From Eledone cirrhosa (Eukaryota), in assembly GCA_964016885.1 (NCBI GenBank), contig OZ024755.1, positions 6,138,001 through 6,202,000 of the forward strand: a stretch of DNA of 64,000 nucleotides. Direction: 5' to 3'. The position numbers and the translations under genes are program-made. The notes under the pieces are model-generated. The model made no database searches and was not told the origin of the DNA. It saw nothing but the letters and a program-made list of their open reading frames with translations. Below, piece after piece: positions 28,692 to 63,830 of this stretch; within the stretch, counting starts at the first letter, position 1, and every line of letters starts with the position of its first letter.

Positions 28692-28870
28692 GTAAACAGA
28701 AATAATAGCACAGTCGGTAGAGTATATGGAAGGGATATATTAGGTTAACGCTTGATATAGCAGGAAGAGGGTGTTAACGTTTCGGACGCTAGTCCTTCAT
28801 CAGAGGAAAGAATGAGAAATAAGATAGATCGAGGGGACGGGCGGGTTGGAATTGGAAAAAAAAATGTCTT
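28687..28870 (-). mobile_element. HHR-bearing short element, family H (copy 1)
   Basis: Minus strand reads CTGATGA-A-GGAC tagc GTCC-GAAACGTT (28803-28776). Homologues lie at 42211-42372 (+) and 63650-63830 (-). Confidence 0.75.
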
Positions 28871-38082: not shown

Positions 38083-38330
38083 TATATATATTTACTGTAT
38101 ATATATATATTAACAAAAAAAAAAAAAAAATTATGAAAAATATGAAACCAAATTTCATTTCGACATCAGTTGGTATATTTATCATGTCAGCATCTTTCGG
38201 AATATTCTCAAGTTTATATTGAAAATGGCAAGAAGAAAAAAAGGTGTTTGGCTAAGTATTTTTATTATTCTGATTATTTGATTGAAAGCTAAAAATATGG
38301 ATTGTATCATTGCACCTTTGGCTTTGTGAA

Positions 38331-38600
38331 GGTGCATGGCTGCTTAGTGGTTAGAGCATTGGGCTTGCAATCGAAAGGTCGTGAGTTCAATTCTCGGACC
38401 GGGTGATGTGTTGTTTCCTTGAGCAAGACACTTAATTTCTCATTGCCCCAGTCCATTGTGAAGATGCATGGCTTAGTGGTTAGAGCATTGGGCTTGCAAT
38501 CGAAAGGTTGTGAGTTCAATTCTTGGACCGGGTGATGTGTTGTTTCCTTGAGCAAGACACTTTATTTCACGTTGCTCCAGTTTACCCAGCTGTAGAAATG
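38331..38600 (+). mobile_element. Second tRNA-derived SINE family (CORE-like), tandem-duplicated head
   Basis: Two copies of GCATGGCTTAGTGGTTAGAGC (A box)...GAGTTCAATTC (B box)...TTTCCTTGAGCAAGACACTT. Diverged relatives lie at about 60497-60850 and 63424-63545. Confidence 0.75.
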
Positions 38601-40151
38601 AGATGATAGGACTGGGATCCCTATCATTAAATTACCCAAGACACCTCCAACGAGATATACCTTGGAGGAGGCCAGCTAAACCTGTATAGGTGTGAGCTGC
38701 AACAACAACAACAACAACAACAACAACCTTGGGCTTTAAGTTTACTGTTGAATCTCTCATATTATTCTTTGAAAATAATTTCAAGCTGGAAGGTGAGAAA
38801 CGGGAAAGAAAGAAAGAGAGATAGAGAAGGCAGACAGAGGGGTAAGGAGAGAGAGAAAGAGGACTAGAGAGAGTGAGAAGGACTAGAGAGAGTGAGAAGG
38901 ACTAGAGAGAGTGAGGGGAACAGAGAGAGTGAGGGGAACAGAGAGAGTGAGGGGAACAGAGAGAGTGAGGGGAACAGAGAGAGTGAGAGGTGTCAGAGTT
39001 GTTTTACCCTCTCATAAACACATCAAAGGTAGATGAAGGTGACAGGTTAAATGTAGGTATATTTACCAATATGACTATATATCTATTTATCTATCTACCA
39101 ATGTGACTATCTATCTATTTATCTATCTACCTACTTACCTATCTATCCATCTATCTATCTACTTACCTATCTATCCATCTATCTATCTACTTACCTATCT
39201 ATCCATCTATCTATCTACCTACTTACCTATCTATCCATCTATCTATCTACCTACTTACCTATCTATCCATTTATCTATCTACCTACTTATCTATCCATCC
39301 ATCCATCCATCCATCTACTTATCTATTTAGCCATTGGCAGGGGGAAGCTGTAAGCATATCTTCCCCTTTCCTCCTTCGAATGTTGGTGAAGAAGCTTCAG
39401 CCATTTTTTTAAAATGTTAGCTTTTCCAAAAAAACAAACTTTTTATGTACTATTTCGCCTAAAGGCGTAGAATATTTTGAGAGACTGACCAGATCAAAAT
39501 TTCACCTGGCAGTCCCTCTACAAGTTGATATAAAAATGAAGGTTCACAGTTAGGAATTTCTCCATCTATCTATCCATCTATCCATCTATTTATGTATCTA
39601 CCTACACATGACCCTATCCACCAACCTATATATAACTATCAATGAGTGATTTCAATTCAGGTACAGTGTGGTGGAATATTTACCGAGATATTTCACTCGG
39701 TGCTCTTACAACTCTGTCAAATCATTGTTTCTTTGATCCGATCTGACAACCAACTTCTTTACACCTTTCACATCAATATATGACGTTTTTCAATTACGAG
39801 AGATATATTTTAAAAGTCCAAATAAATTCTTAAGTTGATATTAATTTCCGGTTTGACGTTGAACCTTCTCATCTTAGGCAATTTTGTCTTTCAAATATTT
39901 TCCTGTATAATTATTCTATATTTTTGATTCCTCTCCTATAAATCTTCCCTAAGTTCTTCTAATACTTCTTCACATCTTATTCATCTTGTTTTTATTATTT
40001 GTTGATATTTCCACGAATAGTAATTTAATTTGGTTTCGGTCTACTTCGCAGTAGCAATGTTTTGATAGTAATATCAAAAAGCATTTGCACTTTATCAGCA
40101 GTAAACCGAGGAAAAATCTGCAATAATCACAACACAGAAAAGTTCAGGAAT

Positions 40152-42210: not shown

Positions 42211-42372
42211 CAACCCGCCCGTCTCCTCAATGTATCTTATGTCTCATTCTTTCTACTGATGAAGGACTAGCGTCCGAAACGTTAAGACCCTCTTCCTGCT
42301 ATATCAAGCGTTAACCTAATATATCCCTTCCATATACTGTACCAATTATATTGTTATTTCTGTTTACCTTTT
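42211..42372 (+). mobile_element. HHR-bearing short element, family H (copy 2)
   Basis: CTGATGA at 42256-42262, stem II GGAC/GTCC, GAAACGTT at 42276-42283. Confidence 0.75.
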
Positions 42373-42816: not shown

Positions 42817-42865
<49 letters not shown>

Positions 42866-42951
42866 CATATATATATATATATTATGAAGAGAGAAGAAAC
42901 ATTTAGATATAATTAGTAATAAAATGTATCATACCTAAACTGCTCCTAAAT

Positions 42952-43039
42952 TCCTCGACTACGTAGTTTCGTGGCATAAACAAAAACAATATATCAAAGA
43001 TATAGAGTCCTTGCGAGGTCTGCCAACTTATCAAGAGGA
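42952..43039 (-). ncRNA. Mirror copy of the U3-A8 hammerhead
   Basis: Reverse complement of 43587-43674 within the inverted arm. Confidence 0.82.
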
Positions 43040-43586
43040 TACCTCATTTTACTAGTCTCAAGAACGCGTCTACACGACGTGAGAAAGAATCCCAAAAGGC
43101 GGAGGGGGAGATAGTCACGCGATATAACGGTCGAGAAACAGAGCTAAGCCTCTTATAACCACGAAGAAAATACCACGGAGGCGGTATTCATATCGAGGCC
43201 GTAGAAGAGGTAGTGAAGAAGGCGAGAAGTATGAGTAATGGAAGCCTTAACTCACAGTTGGGTGCGGATGCATTCATGTATATATGTGTGTGTCCGCATG
43301 TATCTGTGTGTTTCTAAATATATTAATAACTCCCTCTGGTCGAGCAATCTTTGAAGTGTGGGGACAACTGGAAAGCTTCCATTACTCATACTTCTCGCCT
43401 TCTTCACTACCTCTTCTACGGCCTCGATATGAATACCCCCTCCGCCTCCGTGGTATTCTCTTCGTGGTTATAAGAGGCTTAGCTCTGTTTCTCGACCGTT
43501 ATATCGCGTGACTATCTCCCCCTCCGCCTTTTGGGATTCTTTCTCACGTCGTGTAGACGCGTTCTTGAGACTAGTAAAATGAGGTA

Positions 43587-43674
43587 TCCTCTTGATAAGT
43601 TGGCAGACCTCGCAAGGACTCTATATCTTTGATATATTGTTTTTGTTTATGCCACGAAACTACGTAGTCGAGGA
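43587..43674 (+). ncRNA. Type I hammerhead ribozyme, U3-A8 core variant
   Basis: TCCTC-TTGATAA-GTtGGCA...TGCCAC-GAAAC TACGTA GT-C-GAGGA. Stem III is a 10-nt palindrome. Confidence 0.82.
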
Positions 43675-43905
43675 ATTTAGGAGCAGTTTAGGTATGATAC
43701 ATTTTATTACTAATTATATCTAAATGTTTCTTCTCTCTTCATAATGTATTTTTAACTCTGATACTGGTTCAGTCTGGTTCAAACTGAATTGGTCTGTCCC
43801 AGTCATTCATTGAGCAACATCGGTGAAGTTGGCACCCTTAACTCACAGTTGGGTGCGGATGCATTCATGTATATATGTGTGTGTCCGCATGTATCTGTGT
43901 GTTTC

Positions 43906-43939
<34 letters not shown>

Positions 43940-45403: not shown

Positions 45404-46876
45404 CTAGGCGTGCAGTTGTATATTTTTAGTTTGTAAATGGATAATTGAACTTGATAAGATAACAGAAGAGTCATGAGAAACAGAAAATGAAACGTGGAAA
45501 TAAAAGAAAAAGGCTCACAAATGCTGCCAGTATATTCGCCTACACATTGCGACATGAGACAGCAACTAGATAAAACTGTAATATGTTGGTTCACCATTTA
45601 TATAGAGATATAAAAAACTGAAGTGTCGGATAATATACATGGCAAATTCACTCACATATATGCATACGAACACAAACATATCTAAATTCATGTACGTCAG
45701 AACAGCAATGCATATAAATGTGTGGCTTTTATACAAAATACTGCAACGCAAAGAATATTTACAATAACTCTTAAGTGAATCAACAATATAGCTCTTTGAA
45801 ACGGAAAATGTGGACATAACCAGCCGTGGGACTCGAACCTCATCACTCGGTTAAAATAGAAAATTGTGTTAACATTATACCAAAGTGACAAATGTACCTG
45901 TTGCATATATTTCACAGGTAATTGGGTCAAGATCACGCATAGAAACTATAGACACCACTCCAAGATCGATCTACTCATCAGAGTGTTGAATCAACAAAAA
46001 ATATTTTGTTGAACCACCAGTCAGATGTACAGGCGACCCTATCCCTCCTCCATCGGGTGAGCGAAGGACAGTTATATATATGTATGTAAATATGTGTAAA
46101 ATTACACACACAGATACACAACAGTATGTATATATTTATGTATAAAAGTTGAAGAAATTCAAATATACATATAATAAGAACTAACCACATTATACCTCAT
46201 GAGTATACAAGTACAGAGTTACATGCCAAATATCATGTATTAACTTATATACAACAGCAATAATGTTTACATACTTGGCACATTCATAATAAACAGACAT
46301 GAAACCACATACACAGATACAAACGGATACACACATAGGCACACACTCACACAGGCACACACAAATTCGTTATCACAAAGAAAGGTGTTAATAGCCGTTG
46401 GGTAAACGAAGAAGGAATAAAGAGTAGCGAATGTAAGTTTGTTTATATCTGCATTATATTGCTTCAAGACATAAAGTACAGAAAACAACGTAACAAGTGT
46501 TTGCTACATTTTCCTCCTTTTTCTTTGTTTCTGTTTCATTACAGAGAAAGAAGATAGAGGGGGTAAAAATCATGTATTTCTACCGTAAAATGGCTGTAAG
46601 CGTCCGGTAGCAAAGTGAGGACTGAATCGCCCAGAAATTAATGAATTTGACTTAGATTCTCATGAATAGAATTTACGGCCATGATTTGTTCTTGACATAA
46701 AGATGAGTGAGAAAATTATTTAATGGAATATTTACAGTTAGAGTCTCAGGCATGCTTGTATGTGGTTAACAAGATTGAAAACTATCAAGAATTTACAATT
46801 CTTTAGCAATATAACAACGTTTGTCAGTGGTATGTTGGTGTTTTGAACCTAACATAGGTTCCTACATGAAATTATA

Positions 46877-46985
46877 ATTGTTTCTACTTTTGGCACAAAG
46901 CCAGCAATTATCCCAGTCCATTACTGGTACTTTATTTTATCGACCCCATAAGGATGAAAGGCAAAGTTAACTTTGGTGGGATTTA
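46877..46985 (-). mobile_element. SINE, 5'-truncated
   Basis: Family 3' half. Confidence 0.8.
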
Positions 46986-48246: not shown

Positions 48247-48426
48247 TATTGGCAGTATCGGTAGAAGGTCGGACGCCATGCTTTCAGGCATAGTTACGTC
48301 CCTTTACGATCCGAGTTCGAATCCCGCCGAGGTTGACTTTGCCTTTCATCCTTACGGGGTCGATAAAATAAAGTACCAGTAATGCACTGGGTAATTGCTG
48401 GCCTTGTGCCTAAAGTAGAAACAATT
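48247..48426 (+). mobile_element. SINE (major family)
   Basis: TTGGCAGTATCGGTAG A box, GTTCGAATCC B box and family body. Confidence 0.85.
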
Positions 48427-49753
48427 ATATATATATATAGCTCTGATTTATCTGAATTATTGAGCCCTCTGCCGCTCATATCGAATTTTGTTTATCGTGA
48501 ACTCGTGCGCCGATTTTTCGATACTCGATTATTCTACTATATATATATATATAAATATGTATATATATATAAATATGTATATGTATATATATATATATAT
48601 ATAAATAAATACACATAAATGTATACACACACGCATACACACACCCACATGTGTGTGTGTGTGTGCGTGTGCGTGTGCGTGTGTGTGTGTGCGCGCGTAT
48701 TTCGTTAAATAATTGTTTCTACTTTTGGCCAGCAATACTTTTGGCCAGCAAGTATTCCAGTGTATTACTGGTACTGGTGTGTATTTCGTTAAAAAATCTT
48801 AATGAAATATTACTGCTATATTTAGTCGTATTTCATGGCTGACTATCTTATACGATGTGATAAATCATTCTCTAACTTTTGGCTTCCGATGCCAGAAAAC
48901 CCATTCCAACATTCATTATTAAATTAAATAAACTGACAGTCACAGCTGGCCTTACTCTAAGGCTATAGTTACAATGACCATCTACACATGTCTATATGTA
49001 TATACGAGTACATATATGTATATGATATGATGTATATAATATGATATACATGTATATGTATATGATATGATATATATATATGGTTACATATGTATATATG
49101 CATGTATGTATATACGTATGCATATCAATTCAGGAATATACATATGTACATGCATGTATATATATATACGTATACCTATATATACACATACATATACACA
49201 CATACACCTACACCTATATATACACATACACCTATATATACACATACACCTATATATACACATACACCTATATATATATATATGTATATATATATAAATA
49301 TATATATATATGCCAAAGTTACCATCTATCGTATCAATAATAAGGACCACATATTGCAATAAGCTGGGGTTCAAGAGACCCCCTTCCTTTTTAATAAGCG
49401 ACCAAAAATGAGATCTATGAGATCTACAGGGTGTACTCATGTAGAACATCTCAACATTCTACTGACGAAGATCGCGGAGGAACCCACATCACGAGGCGAA
49501 GCACAAATAAGGGCAGCAGCAACAAACTCCCTTTGCACCAATGAGCTGCCACGGAGAGCTCTATTATAGAATTTGTAACATATATGGCGGTGCCCCAGCA
49601 TGGCCTCAGCCATACTTCATATCTATTTAAATATATTTTTGGCATCATCATTAGTAGTAGTACTATTAGTAGCAGCAGTAGTACCAGTGGTGGTGGTGGT
49701 AGTAGCAGTGGTGGTGGTGATAGTAGTAGTAGTAGTGGTGGTAGTTTTAGTAA

Positions 49754-63653: not shown

Positions 63654-63830
63654 GGTAAACAGAAATAACAACATAATCGGTACAGTACATGCAAGGGATA
63701 TATTAGGTTAACGCTTGATATAGCAGGAAGAGGGTCTTAACGCTTCGGACGCTAGCCCTTCACCAGAAGGAAGAATGAGAAATAAGATAGATTGAGGGAA
63801 CGGGCGAGTTGGAATTTGAAAAAATGTCTT
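63650..63830 (-). mobile_element. Family H copy 3, core degenerate
   Basis: CTGGTGA...GAAGCGTT, otherwise collinear with 28687-28870. It abuts a (TG)n tract. Confidence 0.7.

What the first reader, a model, noticed from the sequence alone, without database searches (positions are those of the whole stretch)
42881..43914. Young 591-nt retrozyme-like unit with direct repeat, inverted arm and an HHR on both strands
Seen: (TA)n, then an inverted 365-bp arm, 79-bp repeat R, body with HHR, R again, then (TA)n. R recurs at an exact 591-nt period. By eye the arms differ by only one substitution and a 6-nt indel, so the insertion is recent. Inference: terminal redundancy is what reverse transcription of a circular or multimeric 591-nt RNA past one full round would give, and the inverted segment matches PLE-type 5' inversion. 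This is the best candidate here for a currently active non-coding element.
Basis: partly seen in the sequence, partly recalled or inferred. Interest (0 to 1): 0.9.

Follow-up and report, generated by a model that had tools for sequence, protein, structure and literature searches.

The report
Hammerhead retroelement with two-start insertions
This 1-kb insert is one of thousands of young copies of a 591-base non-coding repeat that carries a predicted self-cutting RNA motif; its copies end at just two fixed points, and two-armed copies almost always use one of each, which likely records a Penelope-type enzyme extending both ends of a DNA cut from two different spots on one RNA.

Summary
In detail: (TA)n, 365-bp inverted arm, 79-bp repeat at a 591-nt period, (TA)n. 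It is one copy of a young non-coding family (7,286 exact matches to 25 nt of its hammerhead in the 3-Gb genome). The unit has one type I hammerhead motif (U3-A8 core); the opposite-strand copy is only the duplicated arm. Copies are not circularly permuted at their 3' ends: they stop at two fixed sites 165 nt apart (A, B), in (TA)n. Head-to-head two-armed copies pair one A with one B: 44 of 44 classifiable, 22 of 22 in a separate stretch, 19 of 20 in a 75%-identical sister family, and 10 of 10 in a protein-coding Penelope-like element (PLE) of the same genome. Both arms carry the same insertion-specific variants, and arrays run up to 7.6 units without scars at the cut site. Best reading: a non-LTR retrozyme mobilised by a PLE, whose enzyme extends both ends of a cut (TA)n from two sites on one template, probably a circle. 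Retrozymes, the PLE link and the PLE 'tail' are in print; the strict pairing and a 165-nt tail I did not find. No RNA evidence; partner PLE not identified.

The parts
42862..42880 (.). (TA)n target, left half (follows a (CA)n run)
   Evidence: 126 of 132 classified 3' ends run into (TA)n
42881..43245 (-). Left arm: unit phases 52-422, 3' end at fixed site B, pointing outwards
42952..43039 (-). Copy of the hammerhead motif inside the left arm (predicted cut after 42957)
43245..43245 (.). Head-to-head junction, 1-nt microhomology shared by both arms
43245..43323 (+).
43324..43914 (+). One full 591-nt unit (phase = position - 43323), 42% GC, stops in all six frames; 3' end at fixed site A
43587..43674 (+). 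Type I hammerhead motif: stem I 43587-43591 with 43670-43674, core with U3-A8 (43592-43598), stem II 43599-43605 with 43650-43655 and a long inner hairpin, palindromic stem III 43659-43668, predicted cut after GUC 43667-43669
43680..43731 (+). Predicted hairpin just before site B
43743..43749 (+). Site B (phases about 420-426), read through here; the place where B arms end
43750..43914 (+). 'Tail': 165 nt between sites B and A, present on one arm only
43840..43903 (+).
43909..43936 (.). Site A running into the (TA)n target, right half

Best explanation
The insert is a copy of a young, non-coding 591-nt repeat with a hammerhead motif whose copies end at two fixed sites in (TA)n, and it is likely a non-LTR retrozyme inserted by the enzyme of a Penelope-like element that would cut (TA)n on both strands and extend each end from a different site of one RNA. 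Steps: (1) arrays are transcribed and the hammerhead cuts them to unit length (inferred); (2) the unit is likely ligated to a circle (inferred, about 0.6); (3) a PLE RT-endonuclease, probably as a dimer, holds the RNA at sites A and B, each just 3' of a hairpin (sites shown, binding inferred); (4) one DNA end is extended from A and the other from B (pairing shown, coupling inferred), each for a variable length and often past one round (shown); (5) the two cDNAs are joined head to head through 0-5 nt of microhomology (junctions shown); if one end is not extended, a one-armed A or B copy results (shown, 12:12).
For: Fixed ends: 70 A and 62 B among 136 arms; 2,644 exact B ends and 1,702 + 152 exact A ends genome-wide. 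Pairing: 44 of 44 classifiable two-armed copies are A+B, none A+A or B+B, while one-armed copies in the place-ordered sample are 12 A and 12 B; 22 of 22 head-to-head neighbours in C1 54-102.6 Mb; 19 of 20 in the sister family; 10 of 10 in an RT + GIY-YIG element with a 41-nt tail. One template per insertion: arms of one insertion differ 0.21% against 0.40% between insertions (best-match sample) and 0.27% against 1.6% (place-ordered sample); 84 variant sites are fixed in all covering units, 101 are singletons, 6 are partial. No indel at the cut site in 230 crossings. Sense strand folds far better than shuffles (z -6.3; antisense -0.7). The hammerhead core blocks are the longest invariant stretches among 10 copies 73-100% alike. 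In vitro a PLE protein cuts and extends both strands and starts at two internal sites that delimit the tail (PMC11167929).
Against: No RNA holder was listed, so expression, cleavage and circles are unshown. The partner PLE was not found in five families tested. In the PLE assay hammerhead cutting was not needed and uncut RNA was the main template. Six variant sites in three insertions (L036, L054, L067) are shared by only some units, which a monomer circle does not explain. One A+A copy exists in the sister family (L129). 30 of 44 two-armed copies, the window's included, are geometrically compatible with fold-back copying, and 7 of 44 have near-equal 5' phases (permutation p 0.007). Arm lengths are not correlated (rho 0.20, p 0.18). 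Hairpin support is mostly one-sided G-U changes; only 1 of 41 pairs changes on both sides. The no-scar count is partly biased, since loci were picked by high identity or by an intact cut-site motif.
Confidence: 0.7

Rival explanations
1. Same PLE-driven, two-start insertion, but the template is an uncut linear multimer transcript of a source array, not a circle; the hammerhead is used rarely or at another step.
For: Uncut RNA was the main template in the PLE assay. Partly shared variants in L036, L054 and L067 need a multi-unit template. Seamless cut sites fit as well.
Against: New variants are repeatedly fixed in every unit of an insertion, up to 14 of 14 covering units, which needs a one-unit bottleneck; arrays reach 7.6 units although most loci have fewer than 2; the ribozyme core is the best-kept part of the unit.
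Confidence: 0.15
2. Only one end is primed (at A or B); the second arm is made by the new cDNA folding back and copying itself, and the endonuclease resolves it at the other site (self-priming as proposed in PMC3846280).
For: Shared variants between arms follow directly. 30 of 44 copies are compatible, and 7 of 44 have near-palindromic junctions, three of them perfect palindromes apart from the tail. Proposed for head-to-head Penelope copies.
Against: In 14 of 44 copies neither arm fits inside the other. Arms differ from each other as much as units within an arm (0.21% and 0.21%). The window's right arm has a private change at 43458 that the left arm lacks. Either arm can be the longer.
Confidence: 0.08
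3. The copies are only cut-down terminal repeats of a protein-coding PLE, not an independent non-coding family.
For: Most dispersed PLE hammerheads are such remnants (PMC4209133). The partner search was limited to five families.
Against: Units read straight from site A into the next unit in 142 internal junctions, never into an ORF; none of 86 loci joins the unit to an ORF; a sister family 75% alike keeps the same closed 580-nt unit.
Confidence: 0.05
4. A DNA transposon-like or satellite repeat, or an assembly artefact.
For: Long inverted arms flanked by TA; tandem arrays.
Against: The two ends of an insertion differ (A and B), inner junctions differ in every copy, 5' ends scatter, folding is strand-specific and the ribozyme core is conserved; a DNA run shows reads leaving the unit into (TA)n at both sites (loose ends at 43323 and 43749).
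Confidence: 0.02

Closest known systems
Animal non-LTR retrozymes (Cervera and de la Pena 2020, PMC7229834; Li, Clavereau and Pollet, bioRxiv 10.64898/2026.07.22.740005)
   Same: Tandem non-coding units, one type I hammerhead with palindromic stem III per unit, GC under 50%, strongly self-paired, thousands of copies, proposed to be moved by PLEs through a circular RNA.
   Different: Unit 591 nt (150-450 in the first paper, 51-972 in the second). U3-A8 core with a long stem II insert. In the parts I read, neither paper describes fixed 3' ends, a tail, head-to-head arms or (TA)n targets; their PLE link rests on co-occurrence and terminal-repeat similarity. Expression and circles are shown there, not here.
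Insertion unit of endonuclease-positive Penelope-like elements (Craig et al. 2021, PMC8557442; Arkhipova et al. 2013, PMC3846280)
   Same: [quoted passage not shown]
   Different: No ORF; tail 165 nt instead of 30-40; the one-end rule is near-absolute when counted; no sequence link to an autonomous family was found.
Poseidon element of the green anole in vitro (Frangieh et al. 2024, PMC11167929)
   Same: Both strands cut and extended at AT-rich DNA, two internal start sites that delimit the tail, hairpin at the start region, predicted dimer.
   Different: That paper sees no strand difference in start site at population level and does not report pairing within one event; hammerhead cutting was dispensable; the inverted arm is not explained there.
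U3-A8 hammerhead variant of Schistosoma Cercyon PLEs (Cervera and de la Pena 2014, PMC4209133)
   Same: Same core covariation; palindromic stem III suited to dimer cleavage; circle model for more-than-unit copying proposed there.
   Different: Here the variant sits in a closed non-coding unit and has a 2-bp stem III with a 6-nt palindromic loop.

Membership tests
Animal non-LTR retrozyme | One type I hammerhead motif per unit | tested here: met
   Motif and stems; invariant core; not detected by Rfam
Animal non-LTR retrozyme | Head-to-tail tandem copies, many loci | tested here: met
   Period 591, arms up to 7.6 units; 7,286 motif matches
Animal non-LTR retrozyme | No protein coding; GC under 50%; highly self-paired RNA | tested here: met
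   Stops in all six frames of the doubled unit; GC 42%; z -6.3
Animal non-LTR retrozyme | Unit size 150-450 nt (2020 paper) or 51-972 nt (2026 preprint) | tested here: inconclusive
   591 nt: outside the first range, inside the second
Animal non-LTR retrozyme | Self-cleavage of the transcript | not testable with these tools
   Needs in vitro transcription; 8 of 9 predicted Xenopus elements did not cleave in the preprint
Animal non-LTR retrozyme | Expressed as linear and circular unit-length RNA | not testable with these tools
   No RNA holder listed
Animal non-LTR retrozyme | No LTR, primer-binding site or polypurine tract | not tested
   No LTR-like fixed ends seen; PBS and PPT not searched
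Penelope-like element insertion | 5' truncation and partial tandems | tested here: met
   136 scattered 5' ends
Penelope-like element insertion | Inverted 5'-truncated copy, head to head | tested here: met
   48 of 87 elements have two arms, all minus then plus
Penelope-like element insertion | Tail at one end only | tested here: met
   44 of 44
Penelope-like element insertion | Tail length 30-40 bp | tested here: not met
   165 nt; about 166 in the sister family
Penelope-like element insertion | Target-site duplication or microhomology joint | tested here: inconclusive
   Duplications cannot be read inside (TA)n; inner junctions mostly 0-5 nt microhomology
Autonomous Penelope-like element | ORF with reverse transcriptase and GIY-YIG endonuclease | tested here: not met
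   No ORF in the unit; no PLE protein match in the window
Non-autonomous PLE derivative | 3'-end similarity to an autonomous family in the same genome | tested here: inconclusive
   None in 115 loci of five PLE families; the genome holds many more families (tens of thousands of candidates per query)

The most novel reading that the evidence does not exclude
The strict one-A-plus-one-B rule is the genomic footprint of the PLE mechanism itself: an RT-endonuclease dimer grips one RNA at two fixed points and extends both ends of a double-strand cut at once, each from its own site. That single step would explain the inverted repeat, the one-sided tail and the tandems of all PLEs, and here it acts on a hammerhead-made RNA circle by double rolling-circle reverse transcription, giving direct evidence that retrozyme circles are mobilised by PLE enzymes.
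Probability: 0.4. Interest if true: 0.8.

Novelty: new variant of a known kind. Interest (0 to 1): 0.58.

Why it matters
How Penelope-like elements make their inverted repeats and one-sided tail is called an open question in PMC8557442, and who moves animal retrozymes has been argued from co-occurrence and similarity only. This family offers thousands of very young insertions of a short, ORF-free RNA that carry the full PLE signature, and a countable rule that makes a sharp prediction for the existing in vitro assay. A 591-nt RNA with two well-separated start sites would also be a convenient template for dissecting that reaction.

Tried and rejected
Rfam: no hit at gathering over the window, no hammerhead at E<=10. 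First motif scan missed the ribozyme through a regex fault, fixed. Runs: no RNA holder listed (6 runs, kind unknown). Two runs (X3, X6) give a single 621/620-nt contig that closes on itself at the 591 period; I rejected this as evidence of a circular RNA because a host SINE is present in them at about the same ratio to the unit as in DNA run X1, so collapsed tandem DNA explains it. Polymorphism could not be judged: flank cover was absent or filtered. 5' ends piling up at the ribozyme cut: 11 of 136 within 20 nt downstream (p 0.007 against uniform) but 4 of 71 in the place-ordered sample (p 0.22), scan statistic p 0.12, none exactly at the cut; not used. L1-type twin priming with one arm stopping at the other's start: 5' phases are spread. 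Partner search: five PLE families (blast and nhmmer in 53, 84, 93) gave no homology; Pfam PF26215 is not in the library. A short AT-rich likeness between site A and one end of the 784-aa PLE may be chance. The end pattern caught one subtype only; one search completed it. One apparent A+A pair on C1 resolved into an A+B copy and a separate one-armed copy. Earlier findings: none by sequence or in this genome.

Full report
Observation. The anatomy is as described: a 365-nt inverted arm (42881-43245) that differs from 43375-43745 by one substitution and a 6-nt indel, a 79-nt exact repeat at a 591-nt period, and (TA)n on both sides. I number the unit 43324-43914 as phases 1-591. It holds one type I hammerhead motif (43587-43674) with a U3-A8 core, a bulged stem II carrying a long inner hairpin, and a palindromic stem III; the predicted cut is after 43669, phase 346. 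The antisense strand of the unit has no motif. Rfam finds no hammerhead here. The U3-A8 variant is known from Schistosoma PLEs (PMC4209133, parts 1-2 of 4 read).

Family. The own genome (3.0 Gb) gave 475 candidates, of which 40 were scored, all 97-100% identical, and 7,286 exact matches to a 25-nt part of the motif (control 0). I studied two samples: the window plus 37 loci (best matches, biased to long young copies) and 48 further loci taken from the first 100 places listed on contig C1 (place-ordered; two more clusters there were already in the first sample). The window's copy belongs to the youngest subfamily: the letter it has at phase 278 is found in 3 of 46 place-ordered elements. No frame of the doubled unit is open, and no locus joins the unit to an ORF.

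Ends. Of 136 arms, 70 end at phase 585-591 (site A), 62 at 418-432 (site B) and 4 elsewhere; 126 of these 132 ends run into (TA)n (a local duplication in L080 is counted once in the pair tally; an older sister-family piece in L074 was set aside). Exact end patterns give 2,644 B ends and 1,702 + 152 A ends genome-wide (the B pattern is also shared by older relatives, so the two are not strictly comparable). Neither site is the ribozyme cut. 5' ends scatter round the unit.

The pairing rule. Of 87 elements, 39 have one arm, 47 have two arms head to head and one is complex (its ends are A and B). Of the 47, 44 are A+B, 3 have one unclassifiable end, none is A+A or B+B. One-armed copies in the place-ordered sample are 12 A, 12 B, 2 other, so independent choice would give about half mixed pairs. 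A separate check on the listed end positions in C1 54-102.6 Mb (40 A, 66 B) gave 22 head-to-head neighbours within 8 kb, all A+B (positions only, not read). A sister family 72-80% identical, with a 580-nt unit and the same ribozyme core, has 23 two-armed copies among 28 distinct loci: 19 A+B, 1 A+A (L129), 3 unclassifiable (counted by eye). A young protein-coding family with RT and GIY-YIG domains also inserts in (TA)n, has two ends 41 nt apart and pairs one of each in 10 of 10 head-to-head copies among 32 loci examined.

Template. Units within an arm and the two arms of one insertion differ equally (0.21% and 0.21%; 0.27% and 0.27%), less than different insertions (0.40%; 1.6%). Variant sites are fixed in all covering units (84), single (101) or partial (6, in L036, L054, L067). 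Fixed insertion-specific variants span both arms at 40 sites. 77 of 132 arms exceed one unit, 29 exceed two, the longest is 4,476 nt. The cut site shows no indel in 230 crossings. This points to one template per insertion and to repeated one-unit bottlenecks, as a circle would give; the six partial sites need a multi-unit template at least sometimes, and L036 fits no simple period. Fold-back copying cannot make 14 of 44 copies, but may make some: 7 of 44 have 5' phases within 15 nt of each other (permutation p 0.007), which also fits both enzymes running off one broken template.

RNA features. The sense strand folds at z -6.3, the antisense at -0.7. Long hairpins precede both sites; 98% of cells pair across 10 copies, mostly through G-U-compatible changes, with only 1 of 41 pairs changed on both sides and high values for partners slid by two in this low-complexity region, so this support is moderate. 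The two ribozyme core blocks are the longest invariant stretches of the alignment, which suggests selection on cleavage. There is no expression evidence (see Tried and rejected).

Mechanism. Shown: fixed ends, pairing, shared template variants, multi-unit arms, microhomology junctions (mostly 0-5 nt where SNPs do not blur them). Inferred: hammerhead cleavage, circularisation, a PLE enzyme acting in trans, dimer coupling. The anole PLE protein cuts and extends both strands, starts at two internal sites that delimit the tail and is predicted to dimerise (PMC11167929, parts 1-2 of 4 and passages; its text supplements hold none of my terms, and figures are not held). Its finding of no strand difference in start site is compatible with pairing within each event on a symmetric target. 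Its finding that hammerhead cutting is dispensable counts against the circle step.

What is known. Retrozymes, their circles and the proposal that PLEs move them: PMC7229834 (passages, parts 3-4 of 6) and bioRxiv 10.64898/2026.07.22.740005 (parts 1-3 of 5; supplements not seen). [quoted passage not shown] In nine searches I found no count of the pairing rule, no tail near 165 nt and no PLE insertion signature reported for a retrozyme. Arkhipova 2006, Evgen'ev and Arkhipova 2005 and Pyatkov 2004 were not seen and may already state the rule. The host looks like an octopod genome by its repeats (recalled; no call names it).

Verdict. A real, young non-LTR retrozyme family of a known kind, with an unusual long tail and a countable insertion rule that extends to an autonomous PLE. 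New variant of a known kind; interest 0.58.

Noticed in passing
window 42211-42343 (+), 28716-28848 (-), 63679-63811 (-): A second short repeat family with a minimal C3-G8 hammerhead-like motif, three copies in the window, 91-94% alike, and more in other loci.
   Followed up: partly
window 61239 (-) and 61247 (+); L105:2402 (-), 2822 (+): A third hammerhead-like family in head-to-head copies.
   Followed up: no
L116-L145; L074:3016-3330: Sister family with a 580-nt unit, 72-80% identical, 1,825 candidates, older (about 94% among copies), same two-site rule with one A+A exception.
   Followed up: yes
L245-L249, L146-L170: Very young RT + GIY-YIG element of about 4.9 kb with many identical copies, (TA)n targets and a 41-nt tail; its RT frame (784 aa) is preceded by a separate overlapping frame of about 455 aa, unusual for a PLE; no hammerhead found in it.
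   Followed up: partly
L074:6210-7732; L084:1102; L246:7817; L074:920: Other tandem hammerhead families of about 310-320 nt, one with a U3-A8 core, also head to head in (TA)n.
   Followed up: no
L043:8300-8737; L049:6432-6589; L054:497-1040: A further hammerhead family whose two arms end differently (one stops in (TA)n, the other reads on) in 2 of 3 copies looked at.
   Followed up: partly
L036 (G000:C12:14090583-14098601): An 8-kb two-armed array of about 14 units; one variant is in every unit, four are shared by two units each in a pattern that fits neither a monomer circle nor a simple period.
   Followed up: partly
L240-L244, L171-L195; L250-L264; L200-L239: At least four more PLE-like protein families, two of them young, each with tens of thousands of candidate matches; PLEs are very abundant in this genome.
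   Followed up: partly
window 38324-38628; 46870-46984; 48248-48439: High-copy SINE-like repeats, one as a 129-nt tandem pair.
   Followed up: no
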